The notes below the pieces were generated by a model. The model searched no databases. It had not been told where the DNA came from and saw only the letters and a program-made list of their open reading frames with translations. From the NCBI GenBank assembly GCA_964401865.1, contig CAYNZZ010000003.1, forward strand, positions 81,372 to 113,371: 32,000 bases of DNA, read 5' to 3'. Of this stretch, positions 8,796 to 32,000 are shown in pieces. The DNA comes from an uncultured Erysipelotrichaceae bacterium (GTDB lineage Bacteria > Bacillota_I > Bacilli_A > Erysipelotrichales > Erysipelotrichaceae). Position numbers and translations under genes: made by a program. Within the stretch, counting starts at the first letter, position 1. Each line of letters starts with the position of its first letter.

Positions 8796-9056
8796 ATGGA
8801 AGATATGTTAGAATTTCGTTATGATACTCAATTACTAATAGAGGGTAAAAATTTAAATGAAGATGCCATTAGTGAATATTTCACTAATAATTTTAAAGGC
8901 GATTGCTTATTGGCAGTTGGAGATGATGAACTAATCAAAATTCATTTTCATACCAATGAACCATGGAAAGTTTTAAAATATTGTTCAACATTAGGTGAGA
9001 TATATGACATTGTTGTTGAAGATATGGATAGGCAAGCTAGGGGCTTGAAAGGTTAA
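8796..9056 (+). CDS. Small stand-alone protein resembling the central domain of FakA/YloV (DAK2-domain fatty-acid kinase)
   Basis: 86 aa. GDCLLAVGDDELIKIHFHTNEPWKVL ... GEIYDIVVEDMDRQ closely parallels the GDSLxVxxDDELVKVHxHxEEPGxVL ... GELxxIKIENMREQ block I remember from YloV/FakA. No DAK2 or C-terminal domain is attached. The start could instead be ATG 8805. Confidence 0.55.
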   Translation: MEDMLEFRYDTQLLIEGKNLNEDAISEYFTNNFKGDCLLAVGDDELIKIHFHTNEPWKVLKYCSTLGEIYDIVVEDMDRQARGLKG

Positions 9057-9076
9057 TAAGATAATAATGATTATTG

Positions 9077-11190: not shown

Positions 11191-11493
11191 ATGAAAGAGA
11201 AACAAATAATTGACATAATGGCTCAAAGCTACAAGCAGAGCAAAATATTCATTAGTGAATGTGAGATGGGTGCAAGAAATAACTATCAAATTGATTTGGC
11301 TACATCTAGAAAAATCGTTGAACATATTGATATGATTGTTAGTTATCTCAATGAAAGGGATCGATTCATTATCTATCATGAGGTTATCTTGGGAAAAACT
11401 GGCAATTGGTATCGAGATAGTTTATCTCAACCGAGTTATTATCGCCATCGAAAAGAGGCATATAAAACTTTCTTGCATAATCTAAATGTATAA
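11191..11493 (+). CDS. Small hypothetical protein with a sigma-70 region-4-like / ArpU-DUF1492-like C-terminal HTH
   Basis: 100 aa with a tandem SD (AAGGAGGA and GGGAGG). The C-terminal pattern LNERDRFIIYHEVILG...W...LSQPSYYRHRKEAYKTFL resembles the LsxxERxII...(S/T)YYRxKxxAxxxF signature of small phage-type region-4 regulators (from memory). It is not HPr: there is no GIHARPA and no KS(I/L)MG. Confidence 0.45.
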   Translation: MKEKQIIDIMAQSYKQSKIFISECEMGARNNYQIDLATSRKIVEHIDMIVSYLNERDRFIIYHEVILGKTGNWYRDSLSQPSYYRHRKEAYKTFLHNLNV

Positions 11494-11505: not shown

Positions 11506-13209
11506 ATGTATAAAGGTATTGCGGTTTCTGATGGTATTGTAATTGGAAAGACCTTCAAGTTTGAACAGCCTAAGATTGAAATCAAACACCATGATTCTAA
11601 TGCTGAAGAAGAATTGATAAAATTAGAAAAAGCTTTAGAAAAAACTGTTTCAGATATTGAAAAAATCAAAAACCGTGCAAGTAAAAATTTGTCCGCAGAA
11701 GAACTTGCGATCTTTGATGGCCATATTATGATGGCAACCGATCCGGAATATATCGGACAGATAAAAGATATGATTAGTAATGGTAACTGTTCTGAAGAAG
11801 CGATATCAAAAGTTTCAGATATGATGATTGAAATATTTGAAAATATGGATAATGATTATTTCAAAGAGAGAGCCGCTGATATCAAAGATGTCAGTTATCG
11901 CTTAATGTGTAATGTTTTAGGATTAACCATTCCGGACTTATCGTTAATCGATGAAGAAGTTATCATTGTTGCGGAAGATTTGGCTCCTTCTGATACTGCT
12001 CAACTTGATAAACAGTATGTTCTTGGATTTGTTACGGAAGTTGGTGGTAAAACTTCGCACTCTGCAATAATGGCTAGAAGCTTAGAAATACCTGCTATTG
12101 TTGGTATTACTGATGTTTTGAATAATATTCCTGATGGTGCCAATATTATTATGGATGCAATTAAAGGCGAGGTTATTGTTGATCCAAGCGATGAAGAGAT
12201 AAAACGTTATACTGCATTGAAGTTGGAATACGAAGAAGAAAAGAAAGAATTAAAAGTTCTAGTTCACGAAAAGAGTATTACGCTTGATGGCCATGAAGTT
12301 GAACTTGCGAGTAATATCGGTACACCAAAAGATGTTGAAGGTTTGCTCAAAAATGGTGCTGAAGGTTCAGGATTATATCGTACAGAGTTTTTATATCTTG
12401 ATTCAAAAGAGGATTTTCCTACCGAAGATCAACAATACGAGGCATATAAAACTGTTTTAGAGCAGATGAATGGACAAAAGGTAGTTGTTAGAACACTTGA
12501 TATTGGCGGAGATAAGAAATTAGATTATTTCAAGTTTCCTCAAGAGATGAATCCGTTCTTAGGCTATCGCGCCATTCGTATGTGTTTAGACCGCAAAGAT
12601 ATCTTCCGTGTGCAAATTCGTGCCTTGTTAAGGGCATCGATTTACGGAAAATTGTGTATTATGTTTCCGATGATTGCAACGATTGAAGAATTTTTAGAAG
12701 CTAAAGCATTAGTGTTCGAAGAAAAGGAAAATCTTAGAAATGAAGGTTATGAAGTTTCTGATGATATTCAAATTGGCATGATGATAGAAATACCATCTGC
12801 TGCGGTAATGGCGAGGGAATATGCAAAACATGCAGACTTCTTCTCAATCGGCACAAATGATTTAATTCAATACACAATGGCTGCTGATCGTTTATCTAAG
12901 AGTGTATCATATTTATACCAACCACTACATCCTGCGGTGTTGCGTTTAATCAAAATGACTATTGATGGCGGACATGCTGAAGGAAGATGGGTGGGCATGT
13001 GTGGTGAGATGTGCAGTGATCCAATGGTTATACCTGTTTTATTGGGTCTGGGCTTAGATGAATTCTCAATGAGTTCAAATGCTATATTAAAGGCTAGGAA
13101 GACTGTTCGCTCACTTTCGCAAAAGGAAATGGAAAAATTGGCTGCTGACGCTTTGACTATGGATAGCGAAGAAAAGGTTGTCGAATTAGTTAAAAAAGCT
13201 ATGAAATGA
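11506..13209 (+). CDS. ptsI: Phosphoenolpyruvate-protein phosphotransferase (PTS enzyme I)
   Basis: 567 aa. Motifs: GGKTSHSAIMARSLEIPAIVG (active-site His), LYRTEFLY, GTNDLIQY, MCGEM. Ends in TGA. Confidence 0.95.
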   Translation: MYKGIAVSDGIVIGKTFKFEQPKIEIKHHDSNAEEELIKLEKALEKTVSDIEKIKNRASKNLSAEELAIFDGHIMMATDPEYIGQIKDMISNGNCSEEAISKVSDMMIEIFENMDNDYFKERAADIKDVSYRLMCNVLGLTIPDLSLIDEEVIIVAEDLAPSDTAQLDKQYVLGFVTEVGGKTSHSAIMARSLEIPAIVGITDVLNNIPDGANIIMDAIKGEVIVDPSDEEIKRYTALKLEYEEEKKELKVLVHEKSITLDGHEVELASNIGTPKDVEGLLKNGAEGSGLYRTEFLYLDSKEDFPTEDQQYEAYKTVLEQMNGQKVVVRTLDIGGDKKLDYFKFPQEMNPFLGYRAIRMCLDRKDIFRVQIRALLRASIYGKLCIMFPMIATIEEFLEAKALVFEEKENLRNEGYEVSDDIQIGMMIEIPSAAVMAREYAKHADFFSIGTNDLIQYTMAADRLSKSVSYLYQPLHPAVLRLIKMTIDGGHAEGRWVGMCGEMCSDPMVIPVLLGLGLDEFSMSSNAILKARKTVRSLSQKEMEKLAADALTMDSEEKVVELVKKAMK

Positions 13210-28797: not shown

Positions 28798-29997
28798 ATG
28801 AGAAAAATCAAGGAAGAACTTAGAGATCTAAAACCTAAATTATTACTGATAAGTTTTGCAGTTGTGCTATTTTTTGTTGCGATTAGATTTGATGATATTT
28901 TAGGTTTAGCGTCAAGACTTTTATCTTATTTATCTCCGCTTGTAATTGCGATTGGTTTAGCTTTTGCCTTGAATGTACCGATGCGAAGAATAGAAAAATT
29001 TATCAATTCACATAGTAAAGATGGCAGTGTATTTCGTCGTTTTTCAAGAGGTATTGCAATTGTAGGCGCAATAGTAATTGTGGTTGTTTTGTTTGTTTTT
29101 CTAGGTATGATAGTTGTACCGGAATTCTTTGCGTCAATAGGAAATTTCTTTTTGAATTTAAGTGTTTATATTAATAATATATCTGAGAATATTTACTCTG
29201 TTTTGAAGTATTTCAATATTGATTATGAACAAATCGCTAATTCTCAAATCGAAAATTTTTTCAACAGTATCGGTCTTAACTACAGCGATATTTTAAAACA
29301 GGCTTCAAATTGGATATTAGGAACCGGGCAAGGAACTGTTGATTATATCATGGCTACTGGCAACTACTTGTTCATGCTTATGATGTCATTTACCATCAGC
29401 ATTTATTTATTGGCATCTAAGGAAACTTTTATAAGACAATTAAAGAAAGTTACTTTAGCTATTTTTCCATCCGATATTGCTGAAGATATCTTTGATTCTA
29501 GTAAGGTTGCTAATGATATTTTCTCAAACTTTATTGGTGGAAAATGTGTTGAATGTGTTGTTGTTGGAGTTATGGTTTACGCTATTATGGCAGTATTCAA
29601 AATGCCATTTGCTATTTTGATTGCTTGTTTGTGCGGTGCATTGACAATTATTCCAGTCTTTGGATCGCTTGTAGCCACAATTATCGGATGTTTGCTTCTT
29701 CTATCGGTTAATATATGGTATCCAATATTCTTTTTCTTTATCTATTGGTTTGTTCAAATTGTTGATGGCAATTTTATTTATCCTAATTATATTGGCAGTA
29801 ACATGGGTTTACCGGCAGTATGGATTTTGACATCTGTTTTGGTGTTTGGTTCCGTGTATGGTTTTATAGGGGCTCTATTAGCAGCTCCGACAACTGCTTG
29901 TTTATACACATTCTTTGCCAATTACATCAATAAAAAATTAAACAATAAACACATTACCGTCGATAAAGATGGAAATTATACACAAAATGATAATTAA
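28798..29997 (+). CDS. AI-2E family transporter (PerM/UPF0118)
   Basis: 399 aa, about 8 TM helices. The C-terminal half has IIPVFGSLVATIIG ... VDGNFIYPNYIGSNMGLPAVW, characteristic of the family. SD AAGGAG. Confidence 0.8.
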   Translation: MRKIKEELRDLKPKLLLISFAVVLFFVAIRFDDILGLASRLLSYLSPLVIAIGLAFALNVPMRRIEKFINSHSKDGSVFRRFSRGIAIVGAIVIVVVLFVFLGMIVVPEFFASIGNFFLNLSVYINNISENIYSVLKYFNIDYEQIANSQIENFFNSIGLNYSDILKQASNWILGTGQGTVDYIMATGNYLFMLMMSFTISIYLLASKETFIRQLKKVTLAIFPSDIAEDIFDSSKVANDIFSNFIGGKCVECVVVGVMVYAIMAVFKMPFAILIACLCGALTIIPVFGSLVATIIGCLLLLSVNIWYPIFFFFIYWFVQIVDGNFIYPNYIGSNMGLPAVWILTSVLVFGSVYGFIGALLAAPTTACLYTFFANYINKKLNNKHITVDKDGNYTQNDN

Positions 29998-30020
29998 GAT
30001 GCTTCGGGCATCTTTTTTTA
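29996..30020 (+). terminator. Rho-independent terminator after the AI-2E transporter gene
   Basis: AAGATGC-TTCGG-GCATCTT is followed by a T run. Confidence 0.78.
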
Positions 30021-30069
30021 GGATTTAACTCTTTATACATAAATAATAAGGCATAAGGAGGTAGATAAG

Positions 30070-30369
30070 ATGCGCCAGATATATGTAGAGCCATCACGTT
30101 TGGAAGAAATAGCTTCTAAAGTTGAAATTGCTAATAGTGACTATGAAAGGCTTTGCCATTCTCTTTATTCGGAAGTCGATAAGATGTCGTCAGCTTGGCA
30201 AGGTAAGGATAATGTCGCTTTTAGCAATCAGATTCATTCTTACGAAGAAGATTTGAAACAAATTTCCATCATTATGCGTCAATATGCAGATTTCTTAAGG
30301 AATAGTGCTCGTGCTTATAGAGAAACTCAAGATGAATTGTATTCGCAAGCACAGAAACTATTTCGATAG
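30070..30369 (+). CDS. WXG100 family protein (EsxA-like type VII secretion substrate candidate)
   Basis: 99 aa, with a predicted helix-turn-helix hairpin. W43-Q-G45 (nt 30196-30204) is at the same position as W43-E-G in S. aureus EsxA as I recall it. The opening IYVEPSRLEEIASKV resembles the EsxA N-terminus. SD AAGGAGG at 30055-30061. Confidence 0.8.
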   Translation: MRQIYVEPSRLEEIASKVEIANSDYERLCHSLYSEVDKMSSAWQGKDNVAFSNQIHSYEEDLKQISIIMRQYADFLRNSARAYRETQDELYSQAQKLFR

Positions 30370-30384
30370 TTAGGAGGTAAGAAT

Positions 30385-30678
30385 ATGGATCAAATAAAGA
30401 TTACGCTTAATGAGGTGAGTAATTTAGCAAGCCAGATTCGTTTGATAAATGCCAATTTAGATGATGTGTTAGACTATACCAAAAGATTGATGCAGGACTT
30501 AAATGTAGTGTGGAATTCTGATGGAGCAACCGCAATAATGAATCGCTTTTTGCAGTTCTCTAATCGCTTTAATGAGGAATCAGAAACAATAGAAAGTTAT
30601 GCTCGCTTTTTGGATTATACTGTATCGTCCTATGATAGTTTAGAATCGACTATTGAATCGAATGCACAGACATTCTAA
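30385..30678 (+). CDS. WXG100-like partner protein (degenerate W-x3-G, C-terminal YxxxE)
   Basis: 97 aa, the same length class, with heptad-like helices. W43-N-S-D-G47 replaces WXG. Y83-D-S-L-E87 (nt 30631-30645) lies near the C-terminus. SD AGGAGG at 30372-30377. Confidence 0.6.
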   Translation: MDQIKITLNEVSNLASQIRLINANLDDVLDYTKRLMQDLNVVWNSDGATAIMNRFLQFSNRFNEESETIESYARFLDYTVSSYDSLESTIESNAQTF

Positions 30679-32000
30679 TAATAGAAAATGGTTTTTTCTT
30701 GTTTTGACGCTTTTAATTATTGTTACTTGCACAGCGTGTCATGACAGGAAGGATGCATATCTGATTGGACAATTTTTTGATGATTTAGCTATTAAAAGCG
30801 GTTTGATGTATGAAGATTCTAATAGTAGAGATGCTTTAGTTAAATGGGGCGTGCTGAAAGATGAAGAATATAATCTGGATAATCATTTAAAATATGATCT
30901 ATTTTCTGAAGTTATCATTAAAATGTTGGATATAGATGATAATGAATATCTAAAAGTTTTAAAGAATAAGAATTGGGTTGAAACTGGTGTAAATGATACA
31001 GATGAAGTCAGTAAAGAAGAAGCTCATAAAATTATTGATAAAACAATAGATATAATTAATAATCAAAACTTTGAAAATGATTATACTTATGAATTTAATG
31101 ATGCATTTAAGATTATAGATACAAGCTTGAAAGATGGATCGGGAAGTTTAGATGAACTAAACGATTTCAAATATGTTTACTCAAGAAAAGATGAGAAACT
31201 TTACAAAGTGGAATATGAAGGGGAAAGATATAGTTTTAAAGAGTGTGAGTTAGAAAATGCTTTTTCAAAGCTATATCTTTCTAGCTCTGATTGCGTTGAT
31301 ATAAATGAGGCGATAATAGAACCATATGGAGAACTAATAGATGATAGTCTTTTTAAAGATGGCTATCGTCTTTTATCAAATAAATCTAATGTATTTTATG
31401 TTGAGGGTTTTAGAATTTCTTATACTTTGTCGGCCGGCGATATTCGTTTTCATATTTCTAAGAAGACTAAACAGAATATTAATGTTTATGGAGATTTTTC
31501 TCTATACAATATTAAACCTAGTTTCATATGGGAATATGATAACGGAAATATTAAACATGCATTTTTTAAAGTTGATTTTAACAGTATGGAAAATTTTGGA
31601 TTATCGGTAGGAAAATATAAAGATTTTAATATTGATATAAAAGAATTAGATGATTCTTCTTTACTTAATAAAATATCCAGTGTTTTGAAAACTAAACAGG
31701 ATGAAGTGGATAGTACAATTCCATTATGTAGAATTAAATTGCCAATTAAAGAAATACCATTTGTATATTTGAATATGGATTTGTCGTTACACATATATGC
31801 GAGTGGAAAAGCAGAGATAAAAGTGTCAAATGTTCATACAATTGGTTTTGAGGTAAAAAATAATAATGTAAGGTTTATATTTGATCATGATCATGATATT
31901 GATGCAATAATAAATGCCAGTTTTAATACGACATTAGGTACGGATTTTCATTTAGATGCTTTTAACCAAAAACTAATGAATATAGATACTCGTGCGGGAA
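30662..32000 (+). CDS. Large lipoprotein-like secreted protein of unknown function (3' end outside the window)
   Basis: Not in the supplied track. The frame of nt 30662 is open from ATG 30662 to the window end (more than 446 codons). The N-terminus MHRHSNNRKWFFLVLTLLIIVTCTAC has a basic n-region, a hydrophobic core and Cys-containing lipobox-like ends (IVTC / CTAC). The rest is Asp/Asn/Lys-rich and beta-strand-like. It overlaps the preceding gene by 17 nt. I recognise no family. Confidence 0.7.
   Translation, partial: MHRHSNNRKWFFLVLTLLIIVTCTACHDRKDAYLIGQFFDDLAIKSGLMYEDSNSRDALVKWGVLKDEEYNLDNHLKYDLFSEVIIKMLDIDDNEYLKVLKNKNWVETGVNDTDEVSKEEAHKIIDKTIDIINNQNFENDYTYEFNDAFKIIDTSLKDGSGSLDELNDFKYVYSRKDEKLYKVEYEGERYSFKECELENAFSKLYLSSSDCVDINEAIIEPYGELIDDSLFKDGYRLLSNKSNVFYVEGFRISYTLSAGDIRFHISKKTKQNINVYGDFSLYNIKPSFIWEYDNGNIKHAFFKVDFNSMENFGLSVGKYKDFNIDIKELDDSSLLNKISSVLKTKQDEVDSTIPLCRIKLPIKEIPFVYLNMDLSLHIYASGKAEIKVSNVHTIGFEVKNNNVRFIFDHDHDIDAIINASFNTTLGTDFHLDAFNQKLMNIDTRAG

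What the first reader, a model, noticed from the sequence alone, without database searches (positions are those of the whole stretch)
30070..32000. WXG100 gene pair coupled to an unknown lipoprotein at the edge of an otherwise core region: a possible non-canonical type VII secretion-associated locus
The AI-2E gene ends in a strong terminator. After it, two tandem genes of about 100 aa encode helical-hairpin proteins, each with a strong SD. The first is a clear WXG100 protein.
In the Firmicute T7SSb loci I know (S. aureus ess, B. subtilis yuk), esxA is followed by esaA/essA/esaB/essB/essC-type genes. Here the next gene overlaps the second esx-like gene by 17 nt and encodes a protein of more than 446 aa. 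That protein has a lipoprotein-type signal peptide and no motif I can place, and it does not resemble EsaA/YueB.
Everything to the left is housekeeping, so this is the start of an accessory block. Either the secretion ATPase (FtsK/SpoIIIE-type EssC) lies beyond the window, or this is a WXG100-lipoprotein module of undescribed function.
Basis: partly seen in the sequence, partly recalled or inferred. Interest (0 to 1): 0.72.

Follow-up and report, generated by a model that had tools for sequence, protein, structure and literature searches.

The report
Compact type VII secretion operon start
The two small WXG100 genes and the unknown lipoprotein gene are the first three genes of a compact five-to-six-gene type VII-like protein secretion operon that recurs in Erysipelotrichaceae gut bacteria and matches none of the ten described type VII subtypes in gene content.

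Summary
Window 30070-30369 and 30385-30678 encode a paralogous WXG100 pair. An ORF starting at 30662 overlaps the second gene by 17 nt and encodes a lipoprotein-type protein with no known domain in its first 560 residues.

Contigs 99.4-100% identical to the window continue past its right edge. There the lipoprotein is 640 aa, or 504 aa in a nonsense allele carried by the contigs identical to the window. It is followed by:
- a 1210-aa EssC-like FtsK/SpoIIIE membrane ATPase;
- an 85-aa protein that may be ubiquitin-like;
- a 916-aa membrane-anchored glucosaminidase;
- housekeeping genes.

The order WXG100, WXG100, lipoprotein, EssC-like, small protein is unchanged in about 30 loci from 27 or more species. 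Almost all are Erysipelotrichaceae, including cultured Stecheria intestinalis. The genes are tightly packed and the module sits in different chromosomal contexts. No EssA, EssB, EsaA, kinase or LXG genes accompany it.

The lipoprotein is a module-specific partner, not a housekeeping gene.

By gene content the module fits none of the published subtypes T7SSa-j. I rate it a new variant of a known kind, of moderate interest. The lipoprotein's role and the fold of the small protein are unproven.

The parts
29996..30024 (+). Intrinsic terminator of the upstream AI-2E transporter gene. It marks the left boundary of the operon.
   Evidence: Stem of 8 pairs plus a T-run. The sequence was read.
30056..30062 (+). 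Shine-Dalgarno sequence AAGGAGG for the first WXG100 gene.
   Evidence: Direct reading of the sequence; 7 nt before ATG 30070.
30070..30369 (+). WXG1, a canonical WXG100 protein of 99 aa (EsxA/TsxA-like). It carries W43-Q-G.
   Evidence: PF06013 41.7 bits against a gathering score of 27.3. TIGR03930 44.5 bits against 44.85. Best solved relatives are Geobacillus EsxA 3zbh and B. anthracis EsxB. The W-x-G-K-D-N motif is invariant in 27 orthologues.
30371..30378 (+). Shine-Dalgarno sequence TAGGAGGT for the second WXG100 gene.
   Evidence: Direct reading of the sequence.
30385..30678 (+). WXG2, a divergent WXG100 paralogue of 97 aa. It has W-N-S instead of W-x-G, an invariant Y-x-x-x-E (Y83-E87) and a conserved C-terminal tail.
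   Evidence: NF035934 110.2 bits against a cutoff of 100. PF06013 23.9 bits, E=5e-5, aligned full length. Homologues are named 'pore-forming ESAT-6 family protein [Erysipelotrichaceae bacterium]' and mostly carry PF06013. It clusters with WXG1 by BLASTP. Motif conservation is shown.
30662..30739 (+). Lipoprotein-type signal peptide of the third gene, ending at the predicted lipidated Cys26 (codon 30737-30739).
   Evidence: Hydrophobic segment at residues 10-28. The Cys is at least 90% conserved and aligns with LTGC/LSGC lipoboxes in divergent members. No signal-peptide predictor was available.
30662..32000 (+). First 446 codons of the module-specific lipoprotein, cut by the window end. Full length is 640 aa, or 504 aa in the nonsense allele of the contigs identical to the window. 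The window part covers three N-terminal helical repeats (residues about 30-135) and most of a beta-rich body with no detected relative in PDB or BFVD.
   Evidence: Translation. Full length read from L003/L004 and the truncated allele from L001/L005/L007. AF2 model with mean pLDDT 80.4. Foldseek and HMM searches of PDB and BFVD match only the C-terminal Big_2 domain. Always found between WXG2 and the EssC-like gene.

Best explanation
Window 30070-32000 is the 5' end of one operon encoding a compact type VII-like secretion system found in Erysipelotrichaceae.

Shown here:
- The genes, in order, are WXG1, WXG2, a lipoprotein (640 aa when intact), an EssC-like FtsK/SpoIIIE ATPase (1210 aa), a small protein (about 72-96 aa; 85 aa here) and, in this sub-clade, a glucosaminidase (916 aa). 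The last three lie beyond the window.
- The first five genes keep the same order and tight spacing in about 30 loci.
- The ATPase has two transmembrane helices and a single conserved Walker A/B pair.

Inferred mechanism:
- WXG1 and WXG2 form a helical-hairpin heterodimer. WXG1 supplies the W-x-G turn. WXG2 supplies the Y-x-x-x-E motif and a C-terminal tail. This resembles the bipartite signal of mycobacterial EsxA/EsxB.
- The dimer is recognised by the variable C-terminal part of the ATPase and is exported through the oligomeric ATPase.
- The small protein is the counterpart of the ubiquitin-like EsaB/YukD/TsxB regulator.
- The lipoprotein is tethered to the outer face of the membrane. It is the extracytoplasmic component that stands in for the missing EsaA/EssA/EssB (or TsxI) parts, for example by stabilising the translocon or guiding substrates through the wall.
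- The membrane-anchored glucosaminidase opens the peptidoglycan locally.

In the window's own lineage the lipoprotein carries a premature stop at codon 505, so this copy may be impaired.
For: Extension beyond the window:
- The window is 99.4-100% identical over 10-12 kb to eight contigs that continue rightward.
- The downstream 1210-aa protein matches PF01580 (E=7e-22) and TIGR03928 EssC (E=3e-84). Its best solved relative is B. subtilis YukB (E=1.5e-53).
- It has two transmembrane segments at 233-281, Walker A GTTGSGKS at 601 and Walker B LIVIDEF at 713. These motifs are conserved in the 18 orthologues compared, except a Walker A variant (GGGKS) in L030.

Conserved synteny:
- The order is invariant in 27 GTDB species loci plus L009, L011, L039 and L040.
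- Gene junctions overlap or are separated by at most 17 nt.
- The chromosomal context differs between species: after rbfA, after lacZ, and after the AI-2E gene here.
- No other gene family recurs next to the module.

Substrate pair:
- W-x-G-K-D-N is invariant in WXG1 and Y-x-x-x-E is invariant in WXG2.

Accessory proteins:
- A profile of the small protein matches a ubiquitin-like PDB chain, 5zmb, in register over 55 residues (E=0.006).
- A profile of the ATPase N-terminus draws mainly FHA-domain chains (E=0.1-1.2).
- The lipoprotein signal and lipobox Cys are conserved.

Definition used: ESX systems are defined by an FtsK/SpoIIIE ATPase plus WXG100 substrates (abstracts of PMC4010439 and PMC11217815).
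Against: - Nothing here shows secretion. All mechanistic steps are inferred from homology and synteny.
- The EssC-like protein scores far below the T7SSb equivalog cutoff (283 against 778 bits). It has only one canonical P-loop and is about 270 aa shorter than S. aureus EssC (1479 aa).
- The small protein has no Pfam YukD or NCBIfam hit. hhalign against YukD gives probability 0.3. The single-sequence AF2 model was poor (pLDDT 51).
- The lipoprotein could be a passenger or an adhesin. Its fold gave no functional clue.
- Contigs identical to the window carry a nonsense codon that removes the most conserved part of the lipoprotein.
- The heterodimer and the helical-hairpin folds were not modelled.
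Confidence: 0.8

Rival explanations
1. The locus is a type VII-like system, but the lipoprotein is not part of the machine. It is a co-expressed surface protein (adhesin or wall-binding protein) or a functional partner of the exported WXG100 dimer.
For: - It has a C-terminal Big_2 Ig-like domain, typical of surface and adhesion proteins, in 22 of 27 members.
- Two divergent members match SLH wall-binding repeats (best E=1.2e-5).
- It has its own Sec/lipoprotein signal.
- A natural nonsense allele is found in contigs from five sequencing runs while the rest of the operon stays intact.
Against: - It always sits between WXG2 and the ATPase, with overlapping or abutting reading frames, in about 30 loci.
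- No other candidate extracytoplasmic or membrane component recurs in the module.
- Every type VII system described so far has membrane or envelope partners besides the ATPase (PMC11217815).
Confidence: 0.25
2. In the window's own lineage the system is decaying. The lipoprotein gene is a recent pseudogene and the operon no longer works.
For: - Contigs 99.98-100% identical to the window (L001, L005, L007, and also L002 and L006) carry TAA in place of CAA at codon 505.
- The stop removes residues 505-640, which hold most of the invariant positions from 503 onward (G513, H533, E535, C543, T544 and others) and the Big_2 domain.
Against: - It is a single substitution, and the downstream reading frame is otherwise intact.
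- WXG1, WXG2, the ATPase, the small protein and the glucosaminidase are full length in the same contigs.
- Sister contigs at 99.4-99.6% identity have the intact 640-aa gene.
- The window ends before codon 505, so its own allele was not observed directly.
Confidence: 0.3
3. The WXG100-lipoprotein pair is an autonomous module with no dedicated ATPase.
For: Within the window itself no ATPase is visible.
Against: An EssC-like gene follows the lipoprotein gene directly in every locus whose contig extends far enough. This holds for the contigs identical to the window that reach that far (L008 ends before it) and for 26 loci from other species.
Confidence: 0.02
4. The FtsK/SpoIIIE protein is a DNA translocase of a conjugative or other mobile element, and the WXG100 genes are accessory.
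For: - The FtsK/SpoIIIE domain is shared with conjugative coupling proteins. Weak hits to TraG-D_C and to a 'DNA translocase coupling protein' were seen.
- The module sits at different chromosomal positions in different species.
Against: - No relaxase, integrase or other transfer gene family recurs in the 10-kb flanks.
- The best profile and structure-database matches are EssC, YukB and EccC, not FtsK or TraD.
- GC content is only slightly below that of the flanks.
- The common position near rbfA/truB suggests vertical inheritance.
Confidence: 0.03

Closest known systems
T7SSb of Bacillota (S. aureus Ess, B. subtilis Yuk)
   Same: - A WXG100 gene comes first and the same operon encodes a membrane FtsK/SpoIIIE ATPase with two transmembrane helices.
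- YukB is the closest solved relative of the ATPase.
- The ATPase has an N-terminal cytoplasmic domain of about 230 aa that may be FHA-like.
- A small protein of about 80 aa lies next to the ATPase, as EsaB/YukD does.
   Different: - No EsaA/YueB, EssA or EssB/YukC is present.
- There are two non-identical WXG100 genes instead of one.
- The ATPase scores 283 bits against the 778-bit EssC equivalog cutoff, has only one canonical P-loop and is about 270 aa shorter.
- A lipoprotein gene sits between esx and essC.
- No LXG toxin or immunity genes are linked.
T7SSg (Acetivibrio/Paenibacillus) of Garrett, Higginson and Palmer 2024 (PMC11217815)
   Same: It is a similarly small set of five genes: two WXG100 paralogues, one small B-type protein, one C ATPase and one extra system-specific protein.
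   Different: - The extra protein in T7SSg is TsgL, a DUF5050 beta-propeller. Here it is a lipoprotein with long beta-hairpins and a Big_2 domain, and no DUF5050 hit in 27 members.
- TsgC lacks an N-terminal domain, whereas this ATPase has about 230 aa before the membrane.
- T7SSg is always next to Tad pilus genes, and none occur here.
- The host taxa differ.
Mycobacterial ESX (T7SSa) EsxA/EsxB pair
   Same: - It is a tandem pair of non-identical WXG100 genes.
- One partner carries W-x-G and the other carries Y-x-x-x-D/E near the C-terminus. I know this arrangement as the bipartite ESX export signal from my own knowledge of the ESX literature.
   Different: - No EccB, EccD, EccE or MycP is present.
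- The ATPase is closer to YukB than to EccC.
- The heterodimer was not modelled here.
TsdI/TseI/TsjI envelope proteins of T7SSd/e/j (PMC11217815)
   Same: - They are Sec-exported, Ig-domain-containing proteins proposed to span the envelope.
- The lipoprotein (Big_2) and the 916-aa glucosaminidase (signal peptide, Big_3, C-terminal transmembrane helix) have comparable topologies.
   Different: - TsxI proteins are much larger (about 1650 aa) and consist of many Ig-like domains.
- Those systems also need kinases, phosphatases and FHA proteins, which are absent here.
NCBIfam NF035934 'pore-forming ESAT-6 family protein'
   Same: - WXG2 passes this model (110.2 bits against a cutoff of 100).
- Its NCBI homologues already carry this name.
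   Different: - The name is only an annotation label. No paper in the library uses the phrase.
- Nothing here tests pore formation.
- The model says nothing about the lipoprotein or about the operon.

Membership tests
WXG100 superfamily (PF06013): gene 1 | Protein of about 100 aa scoring above the Pfam gathering threshold | tested here: met
   99 aa; 41.7 bits against 27.3, aligned over 1-84 of 86 model positions.
WXG100 superfamily (PF06013): gene 1 | Central W-x-G motif | tested here: met
   W43-Q-G. W-x-G-K-D-N is invariant in 27 orthologues.
WXG100 superfamily (PF06013): gene 2 | Protein of about 100 aa scoring above the Pfam gathering threshold | tested here: inconclusive
   97 aa; 23.9 bits, below 27.3, but E=5e-5 and aligned over 1-85 of 86 positions. 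It passes NF035934. Most homologues have PF06013 on record. It is a BLASTP paralogue of gene 1.
WXG100 superfamily (PF06013): gene 2 | Central W-x-G motif | tested here: not met
   The window protein has W-N-S. The Trp is invariant, but the third position is Ser in most orthologues and Gly only in a subset.
WXG100 superfamily: both genes | Helix-turn-helix hairpin that forms a four-helix-bundle dimer | not tested
No multimer tool was available.
Type VII secretion system in the broad sense (PMC4010439, PMC11217815) | A membrane-bound FtsK/SpoIIIE (EccC/EssC/TsxC) ATPase encoded together with a WXG100 protein | tested here: met
   Shown in contigs 99.4-100% identical to the window. The protein is 1210 aa, with PF01580 E=7e-22, TIGR03928 E=3e-84 and two transmembrane helices. 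It lies outside the window.
Type VII secretion system in the broad sense | A small ubiquitin-like TsxB (EsaB/YukD) protein, present in nearly all subtypes | tested here: inconclusive
   A protein of 71-96 aa follows the ATPase in 27 of 27 loci that extend far enough. Its profile matches the ubiquitin-like chain 5zmb at E=0.006. It has no Pfam YukD or NCBIfam hit. hhalign against YukD gives probability 0.3. The AF2 model has pLDDT 51.
Type VII secretion system in the broad sense | Demonstrated ATPase-dependent export of the WXG100 proteins | not testable with these tools
   This needs a secretome comparison between wild type and an ATPase mutant.
T7SSb (canonical Bacillota Ess/Yuk) | Core membrane components EsaA/YueB, EssA and EssB/YukC encoded in the locus | tested here: not met
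   No such Pfam or NCBIfam hits in the locus. No further gene family recurs in 29 loci.
T7SSb (canonical Bacillota Ess/Yuk) | EssC equivalog (TIGR03928 at or above 778 bits) with three P-loop ATPase domains | tested here: not met
   283 bits. One Walker A motif is conserved in the family. The flanking FtsK-like regions are degenerate.
T7SSg (PMC11217815) | TsgL DUF5050 beta-propeller, an ATPase without an N-terminal domain, and adjacent Tad pilus genes | tested here: not met
   No DUF5050 hit in 27 lipoprotein family members. The model has long beta-hairpins, not propeller blades. The ATPase has about 230 aa before its first transmembrane helix. No Tad genes recur.
Bacterial lipoprotein (SPase II substrate) | N-terminal signal peptide ending in a lipobox with an invariant Cys | tested here: inconclusive
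   A basic n-region, a hydrophobic core and a Cys that is at least 90% conserved and aligned with LTGC/LSGC in divergent members. The window protein's own box (C-T-A-C) is atypical at position -3. No dedicated predictor and no lipid-labelling data were available.

The most novel reading that the evidence does not exclude
This may be an eleventh, previously undescribed type VII secretion subtype, specific to Erysipelotrichaceae and the simplest so far. In this reading, a single-P-loop EssC-like ATPase, a beta-rich lipoprotein with no detected structural relative, a small B-type protein and a WXG100 heterodimer are sufficient for export. The lipoprotein would then be the sole envelope partner, replacing EsaA/EssA/EssB.
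Probability: 0.5. Interest if true: 0.65.

Novelty: new variant of a known kind. Interest (0 to 1): 0.55.

Why it matters
- Type VII systems are studied mainly in pathogens, and their minimal working parts are still debated.
- A five-gene version has one active ATPase domain and one lipoprotein as the only envelope partner. That makes it a simple test case for what is actually needed to move WXG100 proteins across a Gram-positive envelope.
- It would extend the T7SSa-j catalogue into Erysipelotrichaceae, a family of gut commensals for which no paper in the searched library describes type VII secretion.
- The module occurs in at least one cultured species, Stecheria intestinalis, so experiments are possible.
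- The lipoprotein family has at least 119 full-length representatives at 50% identity and a body with no structural relative in the libraries searched.

Tried and rejected
- **Small protein as YukD.** There was no Pfam or NCBIfam hit in 18 members. hhalign against the verified YukD sequence gave probability 0.3. The homologue search returned only one near-identical protein, so AF2 ran without an alignment and gave pLDDT 51. Its Foldseek hits (HPr, E about 1) are meaningless. The designed PPR proteins that hit the profile are repeat artefacts.
- **SLH repeats at the lipoprotein N-terminus.** Pfam SLH matched only 2 of 27 members. A profile of the N-terminal region found no SLH structure in the PDB. 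I keep this as a weak lead only.
- **ATPase N-terminal FHA domain.** Only sub-threshold hits were found (E=0.1-1.2), though they are mostly FHA chains.
- **Organism name.** The exact-sequence look-up gave no name, and no GTDB representative was closer than 52% identity for the lipoprotein.
- **Structured RNAs.** Rfam found nothing in the window.
- **Promoter.** No convincing sigma-70-type site lies between the terminator and gene 1.
- **Mobile element or DNA translocase reading.** Rejected, because no transfer genes recur in the flanks.
- **Literature.** No paper on type VII secretion in Erysipelotrichaceae/Erysipelotrichales and no subtype beyond T7SSj turned up. The main text and held supplements of Garrett et al. 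do not mention these taxa.
Full report
**1. What is in the window**

The AI-2E transporter gene (28798-29997; PF01594 E=1e-43) ends in a stem-loop plus T-run at 29996-30024. Three genes follow on the + strand.

- Gene 1 (30070-30369, 99 aa) is preceded by AAGGAGG. It is a clear WXG100 protein. It scores 41.7 bits on PF06013 against a gathering score of 27.3. It scores 44.5 bits on TIGR03930. Its best solved relatives are Geobacillus EsxA and B. anthracis EsxB.
- Gene 2 (30385-30678, 97 aa) is preceded by TAGGAGGT and is a divergent paralogue.
  - It scores only 23.9 bits on PF06013 (E=5e-5), though aligned end to end.
  - It passes NCBIfam NF035934, 'pore-forming ESAT-6 family protein', at 110.2 bits against a cutoff of 100.
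  - Most of its 78 database homologues carry PF06013. The named ones come from Erysipelotrichaceae MAGs.
- Gene 3 starts at ATG 30662, overlapping gene 2 by 17 nt, and runs off the window after 446 codons. It has no Pfam or NCBIfam match in that part.
  - Its N-terminus has a basic region, a hydrophobic core and VTCTAC.
  - Cys26 is at least 90% conserved and aligns with the Cys of canonical LTGC/LSGC lipoboxes in divergent homologues.

Everything to the left in the window is housekeeping.

**2. What lies beyond the window edge**

An exact-sequence look-up of gene 1 found 23 contigs, of which eight were fetched (L001-L008). The window is 100% identical to L005 and L007, 99.98% to L001, and 99.4-99.6% to L003 and L004 over 10-12 kb. 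In these contigs the operon continues as follows.

| Gene | Size | Main features |
|---|---|---|
| Lipoprotein | 640 aa | Continues gene 3 of the window |
| EssC-like ATPase | 1210 aa | Start overlaps the lipoprotein stop |
| Small protein | 85 aa | No family match |
| Glucosaminidase | 916 aa | Signal peptide, PF01832 (33 bits against 30.2), a weak Big_3 match (16.9 bits, below the 21.2 cutoff), C-terminal transmembrane helix |

After these come a pseudouridine synthase gene and an NFACT gene. The accessory island is therefore about 9 kb and six genes long.

**3. The ATPase**

- It matches PF01580 (E=7e-22), the EssC model TIGR03928 (E=3e-84) and EccCa (E=2.5e-51). Its 283 bits on TIGR03928 are far below the 778-bit equivalog cutoff.
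- Its best solved relative is B. subtilis YukB (E=1.5e-53), ahead of actinobacterial EccC.
- It has two hydrophobic segments at 233-251 and 263-281.
- Only one canonical nucleotide-binding site is present: Walker A GTTGSGKS at 601 and Walker B LIVIDEF at 713. Both are conserved in the 18 orthologues compared, apart from a Walker A variant (GGGKS) in L030.
- The regions around 365-446 and 955-1060 give only faint matches to a profile of that domain. They are probably degenerate FtsK-like domains.
- Residues 800-1210 are poorly conserved.
- A profile of the 225-aa N-terminal cytoplasmic part drew mainly FHA-domain chains, all on the same segment, at E=0.1-1.2. This suggests an FHA-like domain, as in T7SSb EssC, but does not prove it.

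**4. Conservation of the module**

- The lipoprotein has 31 homologue clusters in the word-indexed database.
- It has at least 119 full-length representatives at 50% identity in the exhaustive search.
- A scan of GTDB species representatives found 27 loci. Nearly all are labelled Erysipelotrichaceae. They include Bulleidia, Anaerorhabdus, Candidatus Colivicinus equi and the cultured Stecheria intestinalis. A few bins carry other labels that I take to be mis-binned.
- In every locus the order is WXG1, WXG2, lipoprotein, EssC-like. Iterative search finds the small protein directly after the ATPase in all 27 loci that extend that far.
- Four further loci reached through distant lipoprotein homologues show the same module.
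- Gene junctions overlap or are at most 17 nt apart. The one exception is L012, where the ATPase gene is split.
- The surrounding genes differ between species. Many loci lie near rbfA/truB, one follows lacZ, and here the module sits between the AI-2E gene and rluB.
- All-against-all clustering of flank ORFs shows that only the five core families, plus the glucosaminidase in 9 loci, recur. No EssA, EssB, EsaA, kinase, phosphatase, EspG-like or LXG family recurs.

**5. The WXG100 pair**

- WXG1 carries an invariant W-x-G-K-D-N.
- WXG2 keeps the Trp, but the motif is mostly W-x-S. It has an invariant Y-x-x-x-E about 14 residues from the end and a conserved tail.
- One partner with W-x-G and the other with Y-x-x-x-D/E is the arrangement I know from the mycobacterial EsxA/EsxB export signal. 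This is my own knowledge and was not tested here.
- I infer a heterodimeric substrate or cofactor. The dimer itself was not modelled.

**6. The small protein**

- Its position and size fit EsaB/YukD/TsxB.
- A family profile matches the 81-residue 'ubiquitin-like protein' 5zmb in register over 55 residues (E=0.006).
- Against this, there is no Pfam YukD or NCBIfam hit.
- hhalign against the YukD sequence, which I verified against 2bps/9qks, gives probability 0.3.
- The only model I could make was single-sequence and poor, with pLDDT 51.
- Verdict on this protein: inconclusive, leaning towards a beta-grasp fold.

**7. The lipoprotein**

- AF2 with a 27-sequence alignment gave mean pLDDT 80.4 and pTM 0.68.
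- The model shows three short helical repeats (about 30-135), a beta-rich region (140-315), a set of very long beta-hairpins (349-502) and a C-terminal Ig-like domain (565-640).
- The last domain is Big_2, hit in 22 of 27 members.
- Foldseek against PDB and BFVD, and a profile search of PDB sequences, match only that domain. The body has no detected relative in the libraries I could search.
- SLH similarity is limited to two divergent members and is not seen in a PDB profile search.
- Many of the invariant residues lie at 489-588 (C489, N503, G513, H533, E535, C543, T544 and others).

**8. A nonsense allele**

Contigs identical or nearly identical to the window (L001, L002, L005, L006, L007) carry TAA instead of CAA at lipoprotein codon 505. 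L003 and L004 are intact. The rest of the frame and of the operon is undamaged. The window stops at codon 446, so its own state is unseen, but its lineage very probably carries the stop. The stop removes most of the invariant residues from position 503 onward and the Big_2 domain.

**9. Comparison with known systems**

- Type VII systems are defined by an FtsK/SpoIIIE ATPase plus WXG100 proteins (PMC4010439 abstract). The locus meets that definition.
- Garrett, Higginson and Palmer (PMC11217815) list subtypes T7SSa-j with their components. None includes a lipoprotein.
- Neither that paper nor its held supplements mention Erysipelotrichaceae taxa.
- The closest by gene count is T7SSg, with two WXG100 proteins, B, C and a DUF5050 propeller. 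Here the extra protein is unrelated and the ATPase has an N-terminal domain. T7SSg is also always next to Tad pilus genes, and none are present here.
- T7SSb is closest by ATPase sequence, but EsaA, EssA and EssB are missing.
- No later paper in the library names further subtypes or describes type VII secretion in this family.

**10. Verdict**

- The region is the start of a compact type VII-like operon with a module-specific lipoprotein.
- I rate it a new variant of a known kind, of moderate interest.
- The type VII assignment is well supported.
- Four points are inferred and untested: the lipoprotein's role as the envelope component, the ubiquitin-like nature of the small protein, the heterodimer, and any secretion at all.

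Noticed in passing
L001 12105-12107 (TAA) against L003 about 11892-11894 (CAA); 58 codons (175 nt) beyond the window end: Natural nonsense allele (Q505*) of the lipoprotein gene. It occurs in five contigs, from five runs that appear to come from three projects, all 99.98-100% identical to the window. Two contigs at 99.4-99.6% identity are intact. The rest of the operon is undamaged.
   Followed up: partly
L003 16175-18925 (916 aa), outside the window: [quoted passage not shown] It is the last gene of the operon only in the sub-clade closest to the window (9 loci) and is absent from the more distant modules.
   Followed up: partly
L003 12296-15928 (EssC-like, 1210 aa), outside the window: The ATPase has a single conserved Walker A/B pair, and the neighbouring FtsK-like regions are degenerate. 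Published T7SS ATPases are described as having four NTPase domains. One orthologue (L030) even lacks the canonical Walker A spacing.
   Followed up: partly
L009, L039, L040 (module near rbfA / truB): In several species the module sits inside the conserved nusA-infB-rbfA ... truB-ribF neighbourhood, often followed by an opposite-strand radical-SAM/SPASM gene. The window's lineage has it between the AI-2E transporter gene and rluB, which implies relocation.
   Followed up: no
L003 lipoprotein residues 489-588: A cluster of invariant residues (C489, N503, G513, H533, E535, C543, T544; consensus HIENGHFVKxCTRK) in a region of lower model confidence. It could be a metal-binding or catalytic site. 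No known motif was matched.
   Followed up: no
window 11191-11493 (+): A 100-aa ORF directly upstream of ptsI, where HPr (ptsH) would be expected. It has no Pfam hit at E<=1e-5, and no HPr-like active-site motif is evident on reading its sequence.
   Followed up: no
window 8806-9057 (+): A short ORF of about 83 aa between the M29 aminopeptidase gene and the DUF2779 gene. By eye it resembles the C-terminal part of a DAK2/YloV-type protein and may be a gene fragment. It was not searched.
   Followed up: no
L012 2392-5941: In one MAG (CALBGK010000145) the EssC-like gene is split into 287-aa and 869-aa ORFs. This could be a frameshift, an assembly error or a pseudogene.
   Followed up: no
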